A DNA stretch of 64,000 bases from Eledone cirrhosa (taxonomy: Eukaryota): the NCBI GenBank assembly GCA_964016885.1, contig OZ024740.1, positions 113,770,001 through 113,834,000 on the forward strand. Reading direction: 5' to 3'. The position numbers were made by a program, and so were the translations under genes. Under the pieces are notes generated by a model. The model was not told the DNA's origin, searched no databases, and worked only from the letters and a program-made list of their open reading frames with translations. Every line of letters starts with the position of its first letter. Within the stretch, counting starts at the first letter, position 1. Shown here piece by piece: positions 3,354 through 62,348 of this stretch.

Positions 3354-3937
3354 ACATACATATATATGTGTGGGTGTGTGCGTGCATGTATGGATGCACG
3401 CGCACACGCGTATGTGTGCGTACAAACACAGGAATTTGATAGATGGGCTATATTATTATTTAAACTTTATTCCTGCTTCCGGTTTTAAAGATTAACTGCG
3501 ACAGTTTCGACTTAGCTGATACATCATCGTAAGAATGTAGTTTGTAACACACACACATTGAAAAATTGTGATTGCAGATTAAATTCCCCGGTAAACTAGC
3601 ACGCAAACGCCACAGTTATTTATTCTCTTCAAAATTTCAACACATTCTTCATTCTTATCCGTTTTGCAGTCTTTCCCTCCATTTTATCCAAATCTTCTCC
3701 CCATATCTCCCCATTACTACAGCTATATTTTACTTTGCTCATCTAGTAATTCCAGTTGAACCGAATCGAGCGTCCATCAGATTTGGAATAAATAAGAAAT
3801 GCGTTATTTTAGCAAGTGGATTGTATATGCTTGTATATGCTAGACGAACTATATAACACTGTTTATATATACATATATTTTGATAGCGCTAGTTTGTGAT
3901 TTAAATTCAGGAATTTTATATTCTTTGAATGAAAAGA

Positions 3938-4021
3938 ACCTTCTGACGAGAATCTCTCTTTGCAACGAAGGCCGTATGGTCTCCGTTTTACTTTTGGGAT
4001 TCGAAACCGATCGGTAAAGGT
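3938..4021 (+). ncRNA. Minimal type-I hammerhead ribozyme motif
   Basis: ACCTT-CTGACGA-GAATCTC...GGGATTC-GAAA-CCGATCGG-TA-AAGGT. Stem I ACCTT/AAGGT, stem II GAATCTC/GGGATTC, palindromic stem III ACCGATCGGT, GUA triplet. Confidence 0.85.
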
Positions 4022-4194
4022 AACTATAGTAGGTAAAGTCAATTTTTTAAAATTTATTTTGAAACTTTTTCATTATTTACTAAACCTTGTTTATATTTGT
4101 TCTGGCTCGTTAATTTATTAACCCACCATTGAACCACACTGGCACTTGGTTGGACAATACATGCGTACCTTGGCGCCTTGTGCGTGAAGGGACG

Positions 4195-4232
<38 letters not shown>

Positions 4233-10578: not shown

Positions 10579-10669
<91 letters not shown>

Positions 10670-10879
10670 ATACTTGGGGAGGGTCTTATTTGTGTAATAT
10701 TGCCAGAATTAATAACAGAACACACTCAGTGTTTGGTCGGTCTTCGCTTCTCGCTTCTGTGTCTTTTATATCGGTAATCTAATATAATATAATATACTCG
10801 GTCCTCAATGTTGCCATTGACTGACTGACGGTCAAAAATAATACAGATACAATATAGACACAAACACATATATATAGTT

Positions 10880-10923
10880 TATCATAAATCTTTCGTTGCA
10901 CAACTGCAACATCGTCAGTGGTT
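10880..10923 (-). ncRNA. Hammerhead motif in the 3' region (pseudo-LTR) of the PLE, same strand as its ORF
   Basis: Minus strand aacca-CTGACGA-t-GTTGCA-gttg-TGCAAC-GAAA-gat-TTA-tgat. Stem II is perfect; stems I and III are imperfect. Confidence 0.65.
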
Positions 10924-11199
10924 CTATTGTTTCCTCCTGTTGAATTGTATGGCTACGCCATTTTTATTCAGTCTGTCTATATATTTATTTATTTATTTGC
11001 TTGTTTGTTTATTTTATTTTGTCTTTTTGCGCATGCGTTTGCGTGTGTGTATAGTGTTTTGTGTGATGTGTGATGTGTGTTCGTGATTGGGTGACTAATG
11101 TGTGTTTATGTGTTTGTTGTTATTGTGCTTGTGTATGTATTTATTTATTTATTTATTTATTTATTTTATTTTATTTTATTTACTTATTTATACTTCTCT

Positions 11200-14155
11200 T
11201 AGGTCAGTGTTGTTTGTTTGGGTGTTGTTGTTATTCCATTCATTCTTTCTGTTTAGTCTTGGTCTTCTAATTTCTATTTCACTGGCCTCTCTGATTTGCC
11301 TATCTGCTGGGTCATTTCTATGTTTAGATATTATTCTAATTTCTATGTTGTCTATGTTACCGTCATGTTGTTGTGTGGCATGTTCGTATAGTACTGACCC
11401 GTTTTTTCGTCCTTTTAGTTCCCCCAGTGTTGGTCTATCCTTTCACCTATGCTACGAGCTGTCTCACCTATGTATGTTGTTGTCATGATTCTGCAGGTAC
11501 CCTCTGTACATCTTATGCTATAGACTACGTTTCTAGTTTTACAGTTTATCCGGGGGTTTACCTTACACATGCTACATTTCCTGTTGGTACAGTGGGTTTT
11601 CTTAAAAGGGTAGGTTTTGCTGATCAGGGATTTTATGGTGGTTCCTGGTTTTTCTACCACCTTAATTTTTAAGTGGGTCTTTCTCAGGGCCTTTCTACAC
11701 TGGTTAGCTAATTTCCCTCCAGGGGTAGTGTCCACAAACATGATACTCTGGTATCTCTGGTTATCGTACCATGAGGTGGCTTTCCCTATCTTATGTCTAG
11801 CCCTATCTAAGCTATTCCATGATTTGCTCCTGTATAATGGGCAAATTCCTTTCATGTCCAGTTCTATGAGGGTCCTATACTTCTCCATGGCTCCTTCGTA
11901 TACTCTGACTCTGTCTCTTTGGTTGTAGCCAGAGAACTGCATGCGGTTGATGAAGTGTTGGGTGTGTCTTTCCATTTCTGTTGGGTCGCACATGCGGGAC
12001 ACATTCTTCATCACTCGTACCAAATCTGCGATCAGAATATTAAACTTAGCACTACTGGACATTGCTGAGTTTTTTAGTATCTGGTATTTGGAGGCCATGG
12101 GTTTAGCATAGTGTGAGTGGATAATTTCGGCTCTCTCGTCTATAGTGTTAATCCAGAGTTCTGTGTCTAATACAGGTAGTCTATTGTTAGGGTGTTTGGA
12201 AGGGAAGTCGCTAGTTATCGAGGTTATGGTGGGGGGTCTACCTCTTATGGGTCTACTAGGGCAGAAACGTCTAAGGTCATGGCTGTCTAGGTAGTCAGTG
12301 TCGTAGGTAAGTCTAAGTAGGAGGCCCAGTTCGTCTGTGTCGACGTCGCAGAACTCCACCTCACTCTCAATGATCATATCCACACATTTTTCCCACAGCA
12401 AAATCAATGTTAATGGATGGGTACAGTGACACCACATCCATGCTGCCTATTATGCAGTTGGATAGGTTCCTGTTTTTGTTGCACTCACTGATTCTGCTGA
12501 GGAGGTCCCCTCTACTGTCACATACATCCGGGGACATCTTAATTATGGGGCGTATAACCATTGAGAGGAAGTAGGAGATCCTGTAGTTACTAGCTATATA
12601 TGCTCCGCATACGGGTCTTGTTGGTGGTCCTGTTGTCGGGTCGTCGACTGTCTTGTGGTCTTTGCCATACAAGAGTGGTATGCCATTGTTAGACTCCTGG
12701 AAGTTGTTGGCAGTGCGTCTGTTTGGCTTTAGGATGTCAGTCCACATCATCATGTGAGCGTTGAGGATTTTCTCTCTCCCATCGTGTGTTTGTTGTGCAA
12801 TTTCGCTCGTGTTGGTGATGTGGGATTGCATATCCTTGATGTAGTTCAGCATGCTATCTATTGACATCCTACCAGACTTATCCGTGGGTAGACATACTAC
12901 CTCACCATCCCTTGTGCGCTGCTTGAGGCTAACCAAGCCTTCTACAGGTTTCTTCCCAAGTTGTTGGGCCTTTGGTCTGCTCTGTCTCTCAGTATACCAG
13001 TCTACTATTTGTCTAATCTTATTTCTAGCTATGGTGAACTGTGCCTCTGTCTCGTCATCTATTTGTTGTGGTATGCAAACTCTTTTATTAAAGGGTAACC
13101 TCGTAGGATAGATATTACCTTACTTATATGTTTTTTCAGCTGGGTTGAAAAATAGTTTCTCTAAGAGGTTGTCATTATATCTATCGTCATAGTTGTGTGT
13201 GTTGCTATTATTGTTATCATGGTGGTTGTTGTTGTTCCTATCATTAGCATTATTATTATTGTTATGATTGCTAGATGTATTGTTGTTTACTTCACCGTTA
13301 TTGTTGTTGTTACTGTTATTTCTACCATTGTGGTTGTTACTATTATTATGTTTCTTGTTTTTGATGTGTCTATCATTAATGTTGCTACATGTATTATTTC
13401 CATTATTACGACTGTGGTTATTATTGTTGTTGTTCGTATTGTTACCGTTATTACTACTGTGGTCGCTGCTGCTGTGTCTGTGGTTAATGTTTCTATTATT
13501 ATTATTATTGTGGTTGAAGTTGTTCTGTCTATAGTTACCATTATTACTATTTCTCACTTTCCTGTTATTGTTATTGTTATGGCTGTTATTTCTATACTCA
13601 GAGTTATTGTTTATATTACTACTACCGTTATTATTGTTGTTGTTGTTGTTGTTTACCTTTGCATGCCAACGTATTTTTGTGAAACACTTTTCCAGCTCCG
13701 TTTTGCACTCCATAGGGTTAATCTTTTTGTAGATGGCAAATGTTGGTGGTAGCTGCAGGATTTGTTGTTCTTGTTCACTGATTAAAGTGTTCCCATAAAT
13801 ATTTACTGTGTGGTCATTGGTAAATTCTTCCGGTAGTTTTACATCAGTCATGCGGATATTGTTGATGTTATCTGGGTATTTTTGAGAATATTCTATTTTC
13901 CTTTCTAGTAGTTTTTTTATTATTCATCCACTCTAATTTCTTATTGAAGTGCCTATTGCATTCGTTTCGGGCGTATTTCGTTTCACGTCGGATGACGCTC
14001 ATGAAGTTATCCTTCTCGTTTGGTGCGGTGAGATTTCGGACTTCCTTACCGTTAATGCGTTTCTGTCTGTAAAGTTCGTTGACTTTTGTGTATGTTGTTC
14101 TTTTCATATTAACTGTTATTGTGTGTTTTAGTCGTTCAGCTTGTGTTTTGTTCAA
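11200..14155 (-). pseudogene. PLE polyprotein pseudogene: RT (catalytic core deleted), Cys linker, GIY-YIG endonuclease
   Basis: Motifs PTDKSGR, PPTRPVCGA, GSMDVVSLYPSI, DFPSKHPNNRLPVLD, HYAKPMAS, MQFSGY, CTNRKCSMC, NVVYSIRC...YIGETARSIGERIDQH, then in a shifted frame SVLYEH...RQIREA...LNRKNEW. Multiple frameshifts and stops; no YxDD. Confidence 0.9.
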
Positions 14156-14450
14156 TAATAAATTATTTACTTGTTTTGATATGTTTGTTGTGTATATTTT
14201 GGAGGAAACACAGTGTTTTAAGAAGCGGATTTGTTATGTTGTTATTGTAGTTTTTATATAACAGAAAACAGTGTCTTTCAATAACCTATCAGCTTGGCAC
14301 AAGCTAATGCCATAACGGCGATGAATTAGTTTTGCGAGGTTTTTTATATGAAATCGTGTGTCGAAACAAATATTGTTATACTTGGTGAGGGTCATATTTG
14401 TGTAATATTGCCAGAATTAATAACAGAACACACTCACTGTTTGGTATATG

Positions 14451-33167: not shown

Positions 33168-33359
33168 TTATGTAATATTCGGCTTGTAGTGGGAAAAAAG
33201 GGTTTTAGTTCTGTGACGGCAGAATAATGTTCGTTCAATTCTGTTATTCAGCAGTTTCTTCTTGTGTGTGATTATGTAATAAATCTCAAGATTACACAAT
33301 TTGCAGAAATTTTGGCTCCTGGAAAAGCTTTGGGTTTTAGCTAATTTCTCCCATTTTAG
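33168..33359 (-). pseudogene. C-terminal end of a PLE GIY-YIG endonuclease ORF (absent from the ORF track: no start codon)
   Basis: Translates as LKWEKLAKTQSFSRSQNFCKLCNLEIYYIITHKKKLLNNRIERTLFCRHRTKTLFSHYKPNIT*, matching the KW...CxLCxxE...LLNxRxE...CRH terminus of invertebrate PLE ORFs. Confidence 0.75.
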
Positions 33360-33553
33360 GGTAAACTTTTGATCGCTGGGAGAAATTAGCTAAAACCCAA
33401 AGCTTTTCCAGGAGCCAAAATTTCTGCAAATTGTGTAATCTTGAGATTTATTACATAATCACATCGAAAAACCACTCCTTCAACTATTCTTCTAACAACT
33501 TCACCCCTCCCTTCTAATATTCTCTATAAAAACTAAATAGGTCCTCAGTAATA

Positions 33554-41093: not shown

Positions 41094-44000
41094 TTACAGA
41101 TACGTACTCAGAGTAGGACAATTCACTCGGGCCATTCTTGCTTCTCCCACCCATCTTTCAACAAAATGCTGGGAAGAGAGCACTTCCCTCTCTACTCTGA
41201 TTTTCCTTTTCAAATGAAATTTGAAAAAGTTGATCAGGGCATCACCGAAGAAGTAAGTGCTCGTCTTCAGCCTTTTCAAACGTATCCACCATACTATCTC
41301 TTTCGCCATGGCCACCAGACAGATAAAAACTGCCTGCCCTTCCCGGCTAAAGGAAGAGGGCGGGGCAATCCTCACGATGGACTCAGATGATAGCTCGATC
41401 CGTCCTACAGGCGACAGCAGGTGTTCGACATAAACCCACAAGTCAGGAATTTTCGGACACTGGACGAGTGCGTGCAGGACAGTTTCGTCGCCCTGCGCGC
41501 ATCTCGGAGATGCCCGGCTGACGGCACCTCCATGCCTGTAGAGTTTATCCCGAACTGGCAAGGCTCCTCGGTAGCACTGCCAGGCCAGAGATTTCTGGAA
41601 GTTGTCCATAGGCCCTGGCCCGAAAGTTCTTCCGAAGAGATTGGCTAGTTGATTTTCGTCGACGCCTAGAGTTTCCCCAAGTACGTCGTCTCTCTTCCCC
41701 TCCACTAATCCTCTATAGAACGCCGAGGTGGAGTTTCCACCGATCACATTGCCCGATTGGTCGAGGGTTGTGAGCGCCTGAAGACATTCCAGTCTCCAGG
41801 CGCTCCCTCTCGGTCTTCGCTTGACCCAGGACTGCAGCTCCGTCAAGGAAACGAGCTGGGGAAATACGTGTCTAGCAAACCGCGACCACACCTGATCACC
41901 GTCGAGGAAGAGGTGGAGATGTCGTAGCCTGAGCGCGTGTCTGCGCATCATCAGCCACGGCATGCCCAGCCCTCCACGTAGCGGGTGTTGACAGCAGATG
42001 GACCGCCTGACCATCGGAGCGCGTCCCTTCCACAAAAAGCGAAAGAGCGAACGCTCCAGCGCAGTCAGGCGGGGCTTAGGACAAGGTACGACGGTCAGGC
42101 GGTAGCAGATGACAGACGCGATGTACACGTTAGCGACCTCCGCTCGACCTTTCAGGGATAGCTTCCTCTCCGCCCATTTCTGGGTGAGAGAAGCCACCCT
42201 TCTCGTCACCTCGTCCCATTTTTTGTCCGTCTGGAGGTCAGGACCGAACCAGACACCTAGCAATTTAACCGGTCCGTCCGTCCAGCGTCCGACGCTGTTG
42301 GACGGCATGGACCTGCCTCTCCAGGTGCCGAGCTGCAGGCCCACTGACTTTTCCTGGTTGATCATTGCTCCTGTCACCGCTTCGTATTCTCTTAGTGTAG
42401 TGCCGATCGCCTCGATGTGTTTGGCGTTCGACACCATAACGGTGACATCGTCCGCATATGCTGACACGGATCTTCCGCATCCTAGTTCGCGGAGGGACGC
42501 CCATCAACGTCTCCAGTTTATGCAGTAATGGCTCGAGAGTCAATACGTACAAGAGGAACGAGAGGGGACATCCTTGGCGGACCGAGCGCATGATGTTGAA
42601 CGGTTCCGAAAGGTGACCGTTCACTCTCACCACAGAAGATGGGCCCAGAGCCAGCCGCCCTCAGGACTGCCGCTAGGTAACGATGGTCGACCCTATCGAA
42701 AGCTTTCGACTGATCTAAATTGATCAAGGACCTACCCGTGCCAGGTTCCCTAGCTAGCCTCTCTACGATATATCGCATGAGGTGGAGGTTGTCGTGGATG
42801 GATCTGTCGGGAATGGCGCATGTCTGCGCCTCTCCCACCAGACCACCAACGACAAGCGCCAACCTCTTTGCTAGCACCTTGGTCAAAATCTTGAACTCTG
42901 TGTTTAGCAGAGTTATGGGCCTGAAATTATCTATGTTATCCTCCTTGTTCGGATCCTTTCTCAGCAGTGCCACCGCTCCTCGGCTCACAGAATTCTCCCG
43001 TTCTGTTTCCAGTTTCAGTAGACGTCCGCCAAGAGGCCTCCGAACAAATCTGGCATCTGTACGTAAAGTTCATAGGCCAGACGATTTACCCCTTGTGCAG
43101 CCAGTCATTGACTCCCGTATTTCAGCGGCTGTTATCGGCTTTTCGCAACACTCCGCCTCAGTGGCCGAGAGCCGCCGGCCCACCGCTGCCCCCGAACAGC
43201 TGAGCGAAGTGTCGCTGAAAAGCTTCACACATTTGCCCGGAATCGAGTAGCATGCGCCCGTCGTGGTCCACCAAAGACCGGATCGTGGCTTTTTGGCCAC
43301 GACGCGCCTCCGCCACTCAGGCCCATTGAATGGCTTTCGTCCCTTCGTATCTGAGAGCACGCACCCTAGCTCTGACAACGCAGGCTTCGTGCTTTGCATT
43401 GAAGAATTGGTCAAGGGCCAATTTTGCCGCAAGCTCGTCGGTCGCGATGCCTTTGCTAAGCGCCTCGTCTAATTTTCTAACTAGTTCTCCCTCTGCTCTA
43501 TTTTTCTCTATTGCTAAAGCCTTACTAAACCTAATGGATTCTATTCTAATCGCTCTTTTCAGAGCAAACCACCACTTGTTTTTGACGATGGCCCCCGTCA
43601 ACGCTCACTTAACTAGTTCGCTAATCCGGTCTCTGTATGCCTTGCGCGCTGGTAAGGACGCGTTTAGCTTCCAGTAGCCGGGTCCTCGTCTATGAAGCCT
43701 ATCTAAATCAAGCACACAGATCACGAATGTGTGGTCCGTATAGCTGACGATCTTGAATTGTGGACAGCCTATGCTAGACCTATCTATTTCCCTACAAAAT
43801 ACTCTATCTAGATATGATCTGTCTGGATGACCCTATGCGATTTGTCCAAGTCCACATTGGCACATTCGGGAAATCCAATCGGTACCTGTCAGACAGTTCA
43901 AAACGCCTGAGCAGGTTGGTGAGGCTCTTGCACCCTCCACTCCTATCCGCTAATCCCACACAGTCCCAGCGTGCATCTAAGATCCCGTTCCAGTCGCCCA

Positions 44001-44450
44001 CTAACACTAAAGAGCGGGATTTCCAAGAAAGTTCTCCAGACGCCGGAAGAAATCAGGCCGCCCTGCTCCTGTCGGGGCATAGACGGCCACTAGCCCGAAA
44101 GCTTTCCCGTCTCCGCTGGTCACGTCCAGCACCACCAACTTACCCTCTGGGTCCAGGAAAATGGCCCGTATGGCGAGATCCAAACCTCTCCGAAAAAGCA
44201 CAGCAACTCCTTCCCCCGATCCAGCACAGCTGGGAGATGCGTACACATCGTAGCCGCCGAAGATCGGTGCGAAGGCCCGTGCTTCGGAGATTCTGGTCTC
44301 GCTGATGGCCACTACATCTATGTTTAGTGACCTGAGGTCGTTGAGCAGGTGACCCTGCTTCCATGACGACCTCAAGCCACGCGCATTTATGCTGCCTATT
44401 CTGAGTAAGGTCATGTTTAAAATGGAGTGGAAAAAGATGTGAAACACCAC
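41094..44450 (-). pseudogene. LINE ORF2: AP endonuclease, reverse transcriptase, C-terminal zinc finger (frameshifted)
   Basis: GSINARGL, AISET, VAVYAP, LVGDWN, FRPITLLNTEFKILTKVLAKRL, LDQSKAFDRVDH, SVRQGCPLS, YADD, PRCAQGDETVLHALVQC, spread over at least 7 frame segments. Confidence 0.92.
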
Positions 44451-44605
44451 ATACCGTACTTTTCGTAGAGGAAGGATGGTTTATCCATCCCTTTTCACTT
44501 GATCGTCTTGTGAAGGGACCGTTGAATCATCCTTTCGGCTGGTCGTCGGCTCTTCTATGAGTATGTCCGAATATACTCTCCGGTTGAGAGTCCCTCCTAG
44601 GTCTC

Positions 44606-46618
44606 TCAAATCACCAACTGCTTTGGGGATTTCGTTTTAATGTTTGTGTATTGTTTCTGTGCTATTTTTACCAGTCTTATGTTCGTTGGCGTTTTGATTG
44701 GTGCTGGTATTATGTAGTCGTGATGTGAAATGTCTGTGTGTTCAATTATGTAAGTCATTAGTTTCTTGTTGTGTGTATTTATTGCCGTGCATTTGTTTTT
44801 CTGGGGGTGGGGTGTGGTTCTGCTATTTTCTTGTCGTTGTTGCTGGGTGTGTGTGTTTTGTTGTTGTGTTTGCGATGTTGGTACTTGTGGTGGTGGTGTT
44901 GAAGGTGTTGTTGTTGTTGGCGGTGGGGTTGTCGCCGGTGGTGATGGTGGTGCTAGTGTGGGTGCTGATGGTGTTGGTGGTGTTGCTGCTGTGAGTCTCT
45001 TTGCAGTAGCCTTTACAATTTTAGTATTTCTTTCCTCCCTTTTCGAAGGCGACGATGCGCTGCTTCTGCGTTTGTGCCTTCTTGCGAGCTTTTTACATCC
45101 CTCTCCCACCTCACACTCCATGTCCGATTCTGTGCGATCGGGGAGGCGCACCAGCTCCACTCTTTCCCTTGTTGTTGTTGGTGATGTTTGCACTGGAGTC
45201 TCTGTTGCAGCTGCATTTGGTATTATTGTTGTTGTTGTTAAAAGTCCACTGTTGCTGCTGTTCTTGATTTCCGTGGCCTGGGCATGGGTGCCACGGACCT
45301 ATCGTTCCTGGTTGCCGCTTGTCCTATTGCTGGTAGCCGTGGTGCCGGTTTCGGAAGGAGGGTTTTTCTCCTTTCTCAGGGTCTTCTCGTTGCAGAAGGC
45401 CCTGAGGTGAGTCTTCGATCCACAGCGAAAGCATTTCGGGCGTTTGCCCTCAACACATATGGGCAGTTGAGTGCCGTTATCGAAGTCTATCACATCCGGG
45501 ATAGCTTCGATGCACTCCTGGTTGGTTTGGATTAACATCTCAATGGAGGTACCGACCTAATCTTCTCTTACTTTTTTCTGTACTTGCAGTACAGTTGTTT
45601 TGTCCTCGATTCCGACGAGGACAGACGCGACCAGGCAAGAAGGGGCCATCCGGGGGGAGGGGGGCATGGGTCAGTTTGACCCTCACAATTTTTTGCCCGC
45701 AGTAGGGGGCACCAACACCATTTCCTCGCTCCTTAGGGTCACTAAGGATTGAGCCTTTTCCTACTGTGGTGTGGCAAAAAGCACGTCTACGGTGACATAT
45801 TTCTTGCCTCGGGTGATATGCGTTTTCCGCTGCCACACAGACCCTAAGGCTTTTTGTATTTGAGCCTCTGTGGCTCTTTCAACCCTACGGGATTTCGTGC
45901 TTACTGTACGGTACGTGACTGTACAGTGCTGTTGGGTTTCTAAAATTTTTTCGGCTGACTTGCAGATTGCTCAGTGTCCGGTTTTCGTCACCATCTTCTT
46001 CGCTTCCTGTAATTCCTCATTTGTTATGAGGATGGTTTCCAGGTTCTTTGCGATACCTGCAAACGAGATTGGTTTTTCTTTGCTGCTGTTGTTGTTGTTA
46101 TTGTTGTCGTCAGAGCTGCTGTTACTTTTGTTGTTGCTGTAGGTACTACGACTACTGTCGCCGCCGCTGTTGCTGTGGTTGTTGCTGTTGTTGCTGCTGC
46201 TGCTGTTGTTGTTGCTGCTAATGCTGTTGTTGTTTATGCTGCTGCTGATGATGTTTCGGCTGCTACTGTAGTTTTCCATGTCACTGTTGCTGCTGCTGCT
46301 GTTATTACGGCTGCTACTGTTATTATTCATGACGTCAGACGAATGAAATGGGTTTTCGTATTTACCGCACACCTTTTTCGTCAATGTCGTCGTCGTGGAG
46401 AAATGTTCCATGATTTTCACGTGATTTTTCTTGACTGGCGTCGCTTGCGAAAGAGAAGAGAGGGAGAGAGACACATTTAGAGAAGGGAGGGAGAGAGACA
46501 ATTTTCTCTCTGCTGTAGTGACGATTGGGAAAGAAGAAGGCGGAATGAGTGGGAGTGACCTATGAAAATTCTTTTTCGTGGCCATGTTTTTTTTTTGTTT
46601 AAAATAAATATTGGGCAC
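44606..46618 (-). pseudogene. LINE ORF1 (gag-like, CCHC knuckle, low-complexity termini), disrupted
   Basis: CFRCGSKTHLRAFC zinc knuckle near 45400; Asn/Ser-rich N-terminus and Pro/Thr-rich C-terminus; lies upstream of ORF2. Confidence 0.7.
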
Positions 46619-58039: not shown

Positions 58040-61000
58040 TAGCTTACGGGGCCAATGCACCCTTCGACCTGAACGGGTCGTATTTCTGTATGTTGGTGGT
58101 GGGGGTGACGAAGAAACAAGTGTATGTGGCGAAGAAAAAGAAGGGGGCATTTGTGGTTCAAGTGTCACTGTGTCAGTGTCCAGATTGGCTCCTTTGAGGC
58201 GATCAACGGAAATAGTTTCCCTGGACCCCTAATGTCCACTGTGAAATGTGTCTCTGTACGAGCAAGCACACGATATGGTCCAGAGTACGGCCGTGTGAGA
58301 GGGGGTCACAGCGTCGTCTCTAACGAACACATGTGTCCACAAGGCAATATCCCTTGGGACGGCAGTTTTTACAGTTTGCTTCCTAGTGTCCATCGGTGGT
58401 AAATCCTGGAAGTAAGAATGAAGCCGGGACACGTAGGAAGCGGGACCTGCGAAGCAAGATCAACAGGAGCAAGCATTTGCCCCGGTAACGCAAGAGGAGT
58501 ACCATAAATCAATTCGGCCGAGGAGAACCCAAGGTCCACCTTTATTGTCGACCGAATACCTAACAATACAATAGGTAGGTACTCACTCCAACGTGAAGAG
58601 TCCATTGAAGCCCTTAAAGAGGCTTTAAGCTGTCTGTGAAATCTTTCCACCATTCCGTTTGATGCTGGATGATATGCCGTGGTTCTTATGCGAGTGGCGC
58701 CAATAATGTGTGTTAATTCACGGAAGAGGTTCGATTCAAATTGACGACCGCGGTCCGTCGTTATTGTGGTTGGTACTCCAAAACAAGCGATCCATGCAGA
58801 TACGAGAGTACGCGCTGTCGTTTCAGCAATGATATCTGTCATAGGGATGGCTTCAGGCCAACGCGAAAAACGGTCAACGATCGTCAAAATATACGAATAA
58901 CCACGACTAATCGGCCACGGGCCGACGATGTCCACATGAATGTGACGAAATCTGGCATCAGGACAGGTCAAAGTTCCGAGAGGAGTTTTAACGTGCTTAT
59001 GAACTTTTGACTTTTGGCAAGCGACACAGGAACGGCACCAAGCAGCAATGTCACGTCTCATATCAGGCCAGAAAAATCTGGCTGTTATGAGTTTTACCGA
59101 GGCTGTAGTTCCTGGGTGAGAAATGCCATGCAAAGCGAGAAATACAGTTCGTCGATGACCAACTGGGACGAGAGGTCGTGGTGAGTCCAACGAGATATCA
59201 CAAAGTATCTGTCCGTCAGCGGTTGATAAAGGAAGGTATTTCATATTGCAGTTAATGAACTCCGGCGATGTGCAATCCAATGATTCAAGCGAGGGTTGGT
59301 CAATGTCCATTTGACGCAAATCTATATCGTTAGACGACGAGATCGAAGCTATCGGGAGACGAGACAAGGCGTCTGCCGCAGTGTTCAAAGCAGCCGGAAT
59401 ATGTTGAATATCATTGGTGTATTGGGAAACAAAATCCAGATGTCTAGTTTCCCTAGGCGAATATTTGTCAGATTTTGATCTTAAAGCGAAAATCAACGGT
59501 TTGTGATCTGTGAAAATAGTGAATGCTCTCCCGTCCAGAACATGGGAGAAATGTTTCACAGATAAATAAATTGCTAAAAGCTCACGCCCGAAAGTACTAT
59601 AACGATTTTCGGCAGGCTTTAGCTTTCTCGAAAAAAATTCCAGTGGTTGTTGTAAACCATCGCACTTCTGTTGCAAGACTGCGCCCACGGCGGTATCCGA
59701 CGCATCAACACAGAGCGATAGCTCGGCGTTGGGTACTGGGTGGGCGAGCAAAGACGCGCTCGCTAACGCCTTTTTCACTTTTTTAAAATCCTCAAGCTGC
59801 GTTTTATTTAAGGAAATGTCCATATTCTTACGCCTGCAATTTTTAAAAATTTCTGTCAACGAGAACAGCAAGTTGGAACAATTAGTCACGAATCGCCTAT
59901 AAAAATGTACAAGGCTTAAGAATTGACGCAATTGTCGCAGTGAACTTGGCGGAGGCAAATCCGATACTGCCTTAACCTTCTCAGGAAGAGGTCGAATACT
60001 ATCGGCGTAAATCAGATGGCCTAAAAATGTTAGTGAAGTCGAACCGAAAACACACTTGGAAGCATTAATACGAACATTATATCTCTGTAAACGACGAAAT
60101 ACGAGATCCAGATGCTTTGAATGCTGCTCAGGAGAAGAACTAGCAATCAACACATCATCGATATACGTGTACACAAAATCCAGGCCCCGAGTAACATCAT
60201 CCATAAATCGTTGGAAGGTACTAGCCGCATTTCTTAGCCCGAAAGGCATAGTAAGGAACTCGAAAGATCCAAAAGGAGTGGCAATAGCAGTATTCGGAAT
60301 ATCCTCCTTTTTAACCGGAATCTGATTATAAGCACGAATCAAATCGAGCTTAGAAAAAATTGTGCAACCTTGTAATGAAGAAGCGAAATCCTGCAAATGC
60401 GGGATTGGATAACGGTCAGGCACAGTAATCGCGTTTAAGCGTCGTTAGTCACCCGTCGGTCTCCAATCACCAGAAGATTTAAGTACCATATGTAGAGGCG
60501 ATGCCCAAGGACTTGTGGAACGCCGAATTATTCCTAATTCCAGCATGTGGTCGAATTCAGACCGTGCAGCTTTCAACTTCTCTGCAGATAATCTTCGAGG
60601 ACGTGAGAAAACAAGTGGACCTGTAGTGGATATAAAGTGTTCAATCACATGATCCGGACTAGCAGTTCGTAATCTTCCTTGCGTCAGCTGTGGGAATGAT
60701 TTTAACAAACTGTGATACTGGTTGCCCACTTCAGCCAAGAAAAATGCAGGGCTTACTGTGGCGATCTCCGGCTTTGTACCCTCGAACGATAGGCCTGTAT
60801 TAGCATCAAAAAGTCGTTGTCTGCGGATGTCAATCGACAAGGAAAAATGGTGGAGAAAATCCGCTGCCAAAATGGCGTATGGCAAGTCGGCGATAGTAAA
60901 TTTCCACTTCAATTAACGACGCAAATTTTTTAACCGAAGAGGAAGCGAAATTTGCCCGTACGTTCGAATGGCCGTGTGGTTGACTGCTCGTACATTTATA

Positions 61001-61110
61001 TTTTATTCAGATGGTGCTTTTTTGAGATAACTGACTGGCCAAATACTCAGCGACGCGCCAGTATCGACAAGGAAAACTTTTTCGACCGCAGGTCGTATAC
61101 GAAAAGGTGG
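58040..61110 (-). pseudogene. pol: Gypsy Pol: protease, RT, RNase H, integrase (a few stops and frameshifts)
   Basis: FLVDTGAS (~61050-61077), SPWASPLHMV, GD*RRLN (stop at 60445-60447), [56 protein letters not shown]. Confidence 0.92.
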
Positions 61111-61147
61111 CGGTATTGTCGATTTTTCCAGAGTTCAATAGCCGCCC

Positions 61148-62101
61148 CTAGTGGCTCTGCTTTGCGTTTTCCGATCTCTTGTACTTACAGGGCGTGCGAC
61201 AACGTTGTGCCCTACTACCGAAGTTAGCATGATACCAACAAAACGAAGAATTATTGTTGTCTGCGTTGTAGTGCTGGCGATAAATAGAAGACGGCGGCGA
61301 ACGGTACTCGTAGCGGTTTCGAGGAATAGCAGACGGAGGCGAACGGTACTCGTAGCGGTTTCGAGGAATAGCAGACGGAGGCGAACGGTACTCGTAGCGG
61401 TTTCGAGGAATAGCAGACGGAGGCGAACGGTACTCGTAGCGGTTTCGAGGAATAGCAGACGGAGGCGAACGGTACCTCAAACGTTGAGAAGGCTCTCTGT
61501 GTTGTACGGTCAAATCCTCCACTTTTTGGGTGAGCGCTTCGATCATCTCCAACAGTTTGCTGTCGGCCACAGAAGAATTGCGTGGGGGAACAGAAGAAGA
61601 AGCCACACAAGGATTATGCCGACTGCTGTTAGAGTCCACCTCTAGTATTCTATCCGCGGATGCGGCAAGTTGATCTAACGATTCCCTCTCCAAATTATTG
61701 ACCAACACCATCTGCGCACTTGGCGGTAAACGAGAGAAAAATAATTGTTTGAGGAATGGGGTGTCCATCCCCTGGGAGTCGCTCAATTCCCGCAGATGTC
61801 GCAAATAGGAGCTTGGCGCCCTGTCACCCATTTGCGCATCATCTAACAATTCCCGAAAACGACTTTCCGCTGACTTGGTATTCCTCCGAATAATTTCCCC
61901 TTTCAACGAGCCATAAGTAACGTCTGCGGCTAAATTGGTTACCACATCCTTCACGGAATATGCCAACGACACAGGCAAGCCACTAACTAGTACCTTCAGT
62001 TTATGCTGTTCTTTGGTTTTGGTTAAATCAAAATAGCATTCAAGCTGCAAAAACCATAACTTGATGTCGCCTGCGAAGGACGGCAAATGATGTTGATTCA
62101 T
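61148..62101 (-). CDS. gag: Gypsy Gag, 317 aa, intact ORF
   Basis: LWFLQLECYF, MGDRAPSSYLRHL, LFFSRLP, and C-terminal CWYHANFGSRAQRCRTPC knuckle. Confidence 0.85.
   Translation of the reverse strand: MNQHHLPSFAGDIKLWFLQLECYFDLTKTKEQHKLKVLVSGLPVSLAYSVKDVVTNLAADVTYGSLKGEIIRRNTKSAESRFRELLDDAQMGDRAPSSYLRHLRELSDSQGMDTPFLKQLFFSRLPPSAQMVLVNNLERESLDQLAASADRILEVDSNSSRHNPCVASSSVPPRNSSVADSKLLEMIEALTQKVEDLTVQHREPSQRLRYRSPPSAIPRNRYEYRSPPSAIPRNRYEYRSPPSAIPRNRYEYRSPPSAIPRNRYEYRSPPSSIYRQHYNADNNNSSFCWYHANFGSRAQRCRTPCKYKRSENAKQSH
61290..61475 (-). repeat. In-frame 42-bp tandem repeat in gag (~4.4 copies of YEYRSPPSAIPRNR)
   Basis: cggaggcgaacggtactcgtagcggtttcgaggaatagcaga is repeated. Confidence 0.95.
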
Positions 62102-62348
62102 GATGCCGAAAGATTTGATGAATTTTTAAGGCCAAATTTTTTATTCGAAGCAGCTATGCGAACAAAAAATGACACTGTAATCCAAAACCTTATTTTGCTA
62201 ATTCAACTGAAATTCTTTTTGAAAATTCTCGCCGGCCAAAATATAATTTGCATAATAAAAAAAATTATTTTCCACGAAAATTATTTGGTAAGAAAATCCC
62301 AAGATGGCTGATTGAAAAATGTGTTTGTGATTTATATCCAGAGAAATC

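What the first reader, a model, noticed from the sequence alone, without database searches (positions are those of the whole stretch)
3938..4021. Textbook-intact HHR with self-complementary stem III, suggesting dimeric cleavage
All core nucleotides are present, and stem III is the perfect palindrome ACCGATCGGT with no room for a stable loop. Other cassettes use ACTACGTAGT, ACAATTGT, ATGATCAT, ATGCGCAT, ACACGTGT and ACTAGT. Different palindromes at the same position indicate selection for self-complementarity. This fits the known dimer mechanism of minimal PLE hammerheads, in which two copies pair through stem III.
Basis: partly seen in the sequence, partly recalled or inferred. Interest (0 to 1): 0.75.

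Follow-up and report, generated by a model that had tools for sequence, protein, structure and literature searches.

The report
Dimer-type hammerhead in Penelope-footprint retrozyme
This is an intact hammerhead (self-cutting RNA) motif in one truncated copy of a young 483-base non-coding repeat with about 1,200 motif matches in this animal genome; its palindrome stays self-complementary as related families change its letters, so two tandem copies likely pair to cut, and Penelope-type jumping genes likely spread it: a known kind of element.

Summary
Confirmed: a complete type I hammerhead at 3938-4021, with stem III ACCGATCGGT and predicted cleavage after A4016. It is not a minimal hammerhead in a coding Penelope element. 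It lies in a 5'-truncated copy (3878-4204) of a 483-nt tandem retrozyme (1,198 motif matches) inserted in (TA)n.

Dimer reading: in sister lineages about 48% identical, searched with the palindrome left free, 91 of the first 100 hits are perfect palindromes of three kinds, including a central AT-to-TA swap; 7 break the centre. 'No room for a loop' is overstated: 3 bp plus a tetraloop fits. This lone copy has no tandem partner.

Insertions end at two fixed sites 108 nt apart. Of 45 two-armed insertions with both ends intact, 43 use one site per arm: the Penelope tail footprint. Units within an insertion share one haplotype, suggesting a circular template.

Dimeric palindromic hammerheads and Penelope-mobilised retrozymes are published, and this scan already noted such two-armed retrozymes in this genome and palindrome covariation in another. 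Cleavage, expression and the partner enzyme are untested.

The parts
3878..4204 (+). 5'-truncated single-arm copy of the 483-nt retrozyme (unit positions 345-483 then 1-188, counted from the predicted cut)
   Evidence: about 99% identical to many genomic copies; arm mapping
3938..3942 (+). hammerhead stem I, 5' strand (ACCTT)
   Evidence: sequence; stem I pairs kept across lineages
3943..3949 (+). catalytic core CUGACGA (C3-A9)
   Evidence: sequence
3950..4002 (+). stem II, 7 bp, closing an inner hairpin
   Evidence: fold; 5 of 6 tested pairs change on both sides across lineages
4003..4005 (+). core G12 A13 A14
   Evidence: sequence
4006..4015 (+). palindromic stem III ACCGATCGGT; predicted 10-bp duplex with a second copy
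4016..4016 (+). A17; predicted cleavage 3' of this base (GUA triplet)
   Evidence: hammerhead consensus (established knowledge); not tested
4017..4021 (+). hammerhead stem I, 3' strand (AAGGT)
   Evidence: sequence
4092..4096 (+). site A (unit position 80, ...TATAT): fixed 3' end of many other copies; inferred reverse-transcription start
   Evidence: 34 of 48 single-arm sites and one arm of most two-armed sites end here
4097..4204 (+). 108-nt tail between sites A and B
   Evidence: similar spacing in sister lineages
4200..4204 (+). site B (unit position 188, ...CATAT): 3' end of this copy; inferred second reverse-transcription start
4205..4230 (.). (TA)n target microsatellite; a TA-rich stretch also flanks the 5' end (about 3864-3877)
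   Evidence: sequence; most of 103 sites show TA flanks

Best explanation
The motif is an intact type I hammerhead inside a young, non-coding 483-nt tandem repeat (a non-LTR retrozyme) that is likely copied into (TA)n by a Penelope-like reverse transcriptase, and its palindrome likely lets two tandem copies pair to cut the RNA. Shown: the motif, the unit, the copy number, the (TA)n targets, two fixed 3' ends 108 nt apart, one end per arm in two-armed insertions, one haplotype per insertion, and compensatory change in the palindrome. Inferred: (1) a multi-unit array is transcribed; (2) adjacent palindromes form a 10-bp duplex, stems I swap, and cleavage after A17 frees 483-nt monomers, which a host ligase would circularise; a lone unit would cut poorly, which would keep circles intact; (3) a Penelope RT-endonuclease cuts (TA)n and primes at site A and site B using a few bases of TATAT/ATAT homology, one site for each side of the break; (4) it reads through the cut site for up to about ten turns; 5' ends are ragged. 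The window copy is a one-armed, truncated product with a single hammerhead and is probably a dead end.
For: Family: 1,198 exact matches of the 3' half of the motif, control 0; 97 of the first 100 keep the palindrome. Unit 483 nt; longest ATG-started frame 13 aa on the sense strand. Ends: of 103 sites, 51 two-armed head-to-head (43 A+B, 2 A+A, 0 B+B, 6 with one end elsewhere), 48 one-armed (34 A, 13 B, 1 other), 4 complex; P=3e-11 against independent choice of ends; in the subset not picked by similarity 14 A+B, 1 A+A, 3 other of 18. Sister lineages: 8 of 8 two-armed sites A+B among 16 sites; 7 of 8 in the ACTGTACAGT lineage, one unresolved. Two internal start sites define the Penelope tail (PMC11167929); the tail is often at one end only (PMC8557442). 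Palindrome: first 100 of 855 hits, counted by hand from the listing: ACTGTACAGT 56, ACCGATCGGT 31, ACTGATCAGT 4, ACCGTTCGGT 7, single breaks 2; in 12 representative motifs 2 of 5 palindrome pairs change on both sides, 98% of cells paired. Folding: duplex -16.6 versus hairpin -0.9 kcal/mol; in 11 natural tandem windows the hairpin never exceeds P 0.04 and the duplex reaches 0.63-1.0 in 7. Template: units and both arms of an insertion share a haplotype while insertions differ, up to 10 units; one array alternates with period 2, with a G8U core change in every second unit (L067).
Against: No cleavage, expression or circle data were obtained. The central-pair covariation rests on one lineage event (ACTGTACAGT is one clade); the C-G to T-A swap could arise by CpG decay; one lineage (7 of 100 hits) has U-U in the centre. 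In context the double hammerhead beats two monomers by only 2.9 kcal/mol, and both lie above the free minimum (-158.7 and -155.8 versus -163.7); stem I forms with P 0.02 or less in all 11 tandem windows, and the duplex is weak in 4 of 11. The window copy alone gives the monomer stem III P 0.18. 5' ends do not pile up at the cut site (4 seen, 1.9 expected within 3 nt). Four arms run identically from position 331 over 716 nt, which fits a linear uncut transcript as well. One two-armed site (L081) has different haplotypes in its arms. Only 8 variants private to a site and shared by all its units were found in 67 multi-unit sites, against 337 single-unit differences. Neither of two abundant Penelope-like families examined shares clear terminal sequence with the unit. 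Eight of nine Xenopus retrozyme dimers did not cleave in the 2026 preprint.
Confidence: 0.65

Rival explanations
1. Same Penelope-mobilised retrozyme, but the hammerhead cleaves adequately as a monomer (3-bp stem III with a GAUC or GUAC tetraloop); the palindrome is a by-product or an optional aid.
For: The active monomer fold lies only 2.1 kcal/mol above the minimum for the 84-nt motif; the ACCGTTCGGT lineage has spread with an unpaired centre; most invertebrate retrozyme hammerheads cleave as monomers (PMC7761336 passage; PMC7229834 abstract passage).
Against: The four would-be loop bases are not free: G4 and C7 of the palindrome are invariant in 12 of 12 motifs and the centre swaps AT to TA; in ACTGTACAGT and ACTGATCAGT the hairpin is unfavourable (+1.5 kcal/mol); even ACCGTTCGGT gives a -11.2 duplex.
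Confidence: 0.2
2. The template is a linear, largely uncut multimeric transcript; the hammerhead cleaves rarely (or only with the Penelope protein) and plays little part in copying. Arrays are homogenised or extended at the DNA level.
For: No sharp excess of 5' ends at the cut site; excess at 329-345 (15 seen, 5.7 expected, window chosen after looking), with four identical 716-nt arms; in the anole Penelope element cleavage needs protein, is not needed for insertion and unprocessed RNA is the main substrate; the 2026 preprint invokes local tandem amplification.
Against: Many different haplotypes each occur as homogeneous arrays of up to 10 units with both arms alike, which calls for re-multimerisation from one unit in each round; stems and core are kept across lineages about 48% identical.
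Confidence: 0.12
3. The 483-nt unit is only the terminal repeat of a coding Penelope element whose gene-bearing copies were not sampled.
For: Penelope terminal repeats carry such hammerheads; only 103 sites of the family were read.
Against: In the 103 sites the mapped arms run as head-to-tail 483-nt units or their truncated parts and mostly abut TA runs at both outer ends; hammerheads in arrays are about 483 nt apart, not 3 kb.
Confidence: 0.03

Closest known systems
Metazoan non-LTR retrozymes (Cervera and de la Pena 2020, PMC7229834, passages read; review PMC7761336, passages read)
   Same: Non-coding tandem repeats with one type I hammerhead per unit, low GC, dispersed dimers to multimers; proposed circular RNA intermediate and Penelope helper.
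   Different: Unit 481-528 nt against about 170-400 nt; long stem II and no evident loop1-loop2 contact (not tested); (TA)n targeting, two fixed 3' ends and two-armed insertions were not described in the passages read; circles not shown here.
Penelope-associated dimeric hammerheads (Cervera and de la Pena 2014, PMC4209133, parts 1-2 of 4 read; Lunse et al. 2017, not held, known from review passages)
   Same: Type I fold, short helix I, long helix II, palindromic helix III/loop 3, predicted dimer activity.
   Different: Stem III is a full 10-nt palindrome, not minimal; the host is a non-coding repeat, not the terminal repeat of a coding element.
Penelope tail and internal initiation (Frangieh et al. 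2024, PMC11167929, main text read; Craig et al. 2021, PMC8557442, passages read)
   Same: Two internal 3' ends downstream of the hammerhead, AT-rich or (TA)n targets, 5' truncation, inverted second arm, tail at one end.
   Different: Tail 108 nt against 30-40 bp; start sites here carry 4-5 nt of homology to the target, whereas the anole site was reported as not homologous; near-strict one site per arm, whereas in vitro no strand difference in start site was seen.
Animal retrozymes as non-autonomous Penelope derivatives (Li, Clavereau and Pollet 2026, bioRxiv 10.64898/2026.07.22.740005, parts 1-3 of 5 read, supplements closed)
   Same: Same conclusion on the helper; unit lengths of 51-972 bp cover this one.
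   Different: Their evidence is co-occurrence and sequence similarity; here no similarity to a helper was found and the evidence is the insertion footprint.

Membership tests
Type I hammerhead ribozyme | Core C3UGANGA9, G12AA, A15.1-U16.1, H17 | tested here: met
   CUGACGA, GAA, A...U, A17
Type I hammerhead ribozyme | Helices I-III with open helix I, supported by covariation | tested here: met
   91% of cells paired, 8 of 14 pairs change on both sides; slid controls 37-49%; related sequences inflate this
Type I hammerhead ribozyme | Match to an Rfam hammerhead model | tested here: not met
   no hammerhead hit in 3850-4200; a library match, not a defining property of the fold
Type I hammerhead ribozyme | Self-cleavage after H17 | not testable with these tools
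   needs an assay; 5' ends give no sharp signal
Dimeric hammerheads | Self-complementary helix III/loop 3 kept under change | tested here: met
   three palindromes in homologous lineages, 91 of 100 hits; one lineage breaks the centre
Dimeric hammerheads | Helix III too weak for the monomer | tested here: inconclusive
   hairpin -0.9 kcal/mol; dimer better by 2.9 kcal/mol in context
Dimeric hammerheads | Dimer cleaves faster than monomer | not testable with these tools
   needs an assay
Metazoan non-LTR retrozyme | Tandem non-coding unit with one type I hammerhead each | tested here: met
   483-nt unit, arrays to 10 units, no long frame
Metazoan non-LTR retrozyme | Dispersed multi-copy insertions without LTR structure | tested here: met
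   1,198 motif matches; 103 sites read; PBS and PPT not searched for
Metazoan non-LTR retrozyme | Abundant linear and circular monomer RNA | not testable with these tools
   no RNA holder listed; contigs only
Penelope-like element, non-autonomous | Two internal 3' ends (tail), 5' truncation, inverted arm, microsatellite target | tested here: met
Penelope-like element, non-autonomous | Terminal sequence shared with a coding helper | tested here: inconclusive
   two families checked, no clear similarity beyond a short ATAT|TTGYT motif at site A read by eye; other families not checked
Penelope-like element, autonomous | Encodes RT plus GIY-YIG endonuclease | tested here: not met
   longest stop-free frame 74-81 codons in a two-unit stretch

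The most novel reading that the evidence does not exclude
One Penelope protein dimer holds a single 483-nt RNA circle at two start sites 108 nt apart and copies it round and round from both strands of a break in (TA)n, one site per arm. The palindromic hammerhead acts as a multimer sensor: it cuts tandem transcripts into units but leaves the lone circle intact, and a dead ribozyme in every second unit yields a double-length circle (the period-2 array L067).
Probability: 0.3. Interest if true: 0.7.

Novelty: new member of a known kind. Interest (0 to 1): 0.4.

Why it matters
The ribozyme and its dimer mechanism are known. The family adds natural compensatory evidence for the dimer helix in an invertebrate retrozyme, a group mostly reported to cleave as monomers. 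It is also a small, young, protein-free substrate with two sharply defined start sites for testing how Penelope enzymes make tails and inverted arms and whether they copy RNA circles. The near-strict one-site-per-arm rule was not found in the papers searched, though a tail at one end only is described, and this scan has already noted the rule for other families in this genome.

Tried and rejected
Rfam: no hammerhead hit. The repeat finder on the window was swamped by microsatellites. Single-strand folding z-score was not significant (z -0.87). Circular monomer fold: z -1.8 for this family, -6.2 and -4.5 for two sister lineages. Within-family covariation: none, only single changes, because the family is too young; its low mismatch rate in the palindrome is partly set by how copies were picked. 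Expression: no RNA holder listed; two unnamed runs were contigs of unknown kind and gave no splice joint. A possible 5' splice site (AG|GTAAA) after the ribozyme was noticed and could not be tested. Helper search: the window's own Penelope-like element (11.4-14.2 kb, 34,333 candidates) targets (TA)n but has another hammerhead and a tail of about 40-58 nt; a second family with a 713-aa frame (9,894 candidates) showed no clear terminal similarity (its hits were neighbouring retrozyme pieces, one of them, in L229, not resolved). Pfam gave no family for these proteins; their Penelope label rests on a GIY-YIG-like motif read in the frame (recalled motif) and on weak Atlas neighbours. Two hammerheads 5.2 kb apart (L191) are two separate retrozyme copies without a long frame between them. 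A pile-up of 5' ends at the cut site was tested and not found. One search stopped on an error after 11 windows, so the ACCGTTCGGT and ACTGATCAGT lineages were not folded in tandem. Lunse et al. 2017 could not be read. Supplements of the 2026 preprint were closed and those of the other papers were not opened; they may list this family or show tail arrangements.

Full report
Observation. Descriptor scans gave 6 perfect-core hits in the window and none in 8 shuffles. They belong to different repeat families, so alone they are not covariation. Rfam misses the motif.

Host element. The window lies in a 3.0-Gb animal genome. The 3' half of the motif has 1,198 exact matches, control 0, and 97 of the first 100 listed keep the palindrome. 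Copies are head-to-tail repeats of a 483-nt unit with no long reading frame, in arrays of up to about ten units. The window copy covers unit positions 345-483 and 1-188 (3878-4204), holds one hammerhead and ends in (TA)n. The nearest listed family matches lie about 0.84 Mb and 7.7 Mb away, so it has no tandem partner.

Insertion footprint. I read 103 sites: top similarity hits plus the sites of the first 100 pattern matches on contig 1. The 3' ends fall at unit position 80 (site A) or about 188 (site B), each with 4-5 nt matching (TA)n, not at the predicted cut. Of 51 head-to-head two-armed sites, 43 are A+B, 2 A+A, none B+B, and 6 have one end elsewhere; 48 sites were scored one-armed (34 A, 13 B, 1 other) and 4 complex. 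Two of the one-armed sites and one of the six show a short or deleted B arm on inspection, which would raise A+B to 46. Against independent choice, 43 of 45 gives P=3e-11. In the subset not picked by similarity the count is 14 A+B, 1 A+A and 3 other of 18. Sister lineages repeat it: 8 of 8 two-armed sites among 16, and 7 of 8 with one unresolved. Frangieh et al. (PMC11167929, main text) showed that the Penelope tail lies between two internal reverse-transcription starts; Craig et al. (PMC8557442, passages) describe inverted 5'-truncated arms, (TA)n targets and a 30-40 bp tail often at one end. I therefore infer a Penelope-type helper. I did not find it: two abundant Penelope-like families show no clear terminal similarity to the unit.

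Template. All units and both arms of an insertion share one haplotype, while insertions differ; L081 is an exception. That fits repeated copying of one unit, as on a circle. One array (L067) alternates with period 2, with a G8U core change in every second unit, as a double-length circle would give; a DNA duplication could also do this. Against a simple cut-RNA model, 5' ends show no sharp excess at the cut (4 seen, 1.9 expected); broader excesses around the ribozyme (27 against 12.3) and at 329-345 (15 against 5.7) come from windows chosen after looking. Four arms share the same 716-nt extent from position 331, which may mark a transcription start or a strong stop.

Dimer question. A first search with the palindrome fixed found sister lineages (315 matches) about 48% identical to this family, with units of 481-488 nt; there the palindrome is constant by construction. 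I repeated the search with the palindrome free (855 matches, control 1). Among the first 100, counted by hand: ACTGTACAGT 56, ACCGATCGGT 31, ACTGATCAGT 4, ACCGTTCGGT 7, single breaks 2. The ACTGTACAGT lineage has a 526-nt unit. In 12 representative motifs, two of five palindrome pairs change on both sides, including the central pair, which would be loop in a monomer. The weight is limited: ACTGTACAGT is one clade (52 rows, palindrome left out), the C-G to T-A swap can come from CpG decay, and one lineage tolerates U-U. A scan that did not ask for palindromes found 21 distinct stem III strings in 872 kb: 8 palindromes, 1 with G-U and 12 others, of which 7 look like single mutants or a misparse of palindromic families (my reading).

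Folding. The palindrome gives -16.6 kcal/mol as a duplex and -0.9 as a 3-bp hairpin with a GAUC loop; the active monomer lies 2.1 kcal/mol above the minimum. In 11 natural tandem windows the hairpin stays at P 0.04 or less and the duplex reaches 0.63-1.0 in 7, but stem I hardly forms in any. Constrained, the double hammerhead beats two monomers by 2.9 kcal/mol, both above the free fold. The dimer is therefore favoured but not shown, and activity may be low or need protein, as reported for Penelope hammerheads.

Comparison. Palindromic helix III and dimer cleavage are in print (PMC4209133, parts 1-2 of 4; review passages). Retrozymes and their likely Penelope helpers are in print (PMC7229834, passages; bioRxiv 10.64898/2026.07.22.740005, parts 1-3 of 5). 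I found no paper stating a one-site-per-arm rule (searches; subscription papers and supplements not seen). Earlier notes of this scan report two-armed Penelope-type retrozymes of other unit lengths in this genome and palindrome covariation in another genome. I looked these up after my own counts; they are unchecked and are not independent support.

Verdict. A real, probably dimer-dependent hammerhead in a new family of a known kind of element. Shown: anatomy, family, ends, covariation. Inferred: cleavage, dimer, circle, helper. Interest 0.4.

Noticed in passing
window 10660-14445 (-): Broken Penelope-like element with an Asn-rich insert, a GIY-YIG-like motif (about 11440-11530), its own hammerhead near 10918-10880 and (TA)n ends; a very large young family (34,333 candidates, open frames up to 1,304 aa) with a tail of about 40-58 nt.
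   Followed up: partly
   Followed up: partly
L067 (G000:C2:370972997-370974643): Array whose units alternate with period 2, with a G8U core change in every second ribozyme; possible trace of a double-length circle.
   Followed up: partly
L002, L076, L085, L118: Four insertions with different flanks share the same 716-nt arm starting at unit position 331; possible transcription start or strong reverse-transcription stop.
   Followed up: partly
window 4030-4037 and sister lineages: Conserved TAG|GTAAA 13 nt after the predicted cut, resembling a 5' splice site, kept in lineages about 48% identical.
   Followed up: no
L089/L029 left flank; L022 left flank: Retrozyme copies sit next to ends that resemble those of the 713-aa Penelope-like family, either by a shared (TA)n target or by a template switch.
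   Followed up: no
window 41094-45300 (-) and 58369-62125 (-): A LINE-like element in pieces and a Gypsy-like LTR retrotransposon with gag and pol frames (labels read from the translated frames, not tested).
   Followed up: no
window 33299-33431: Long perfect hairpin, probably a small inverted-repeat element.
   Followed up: no
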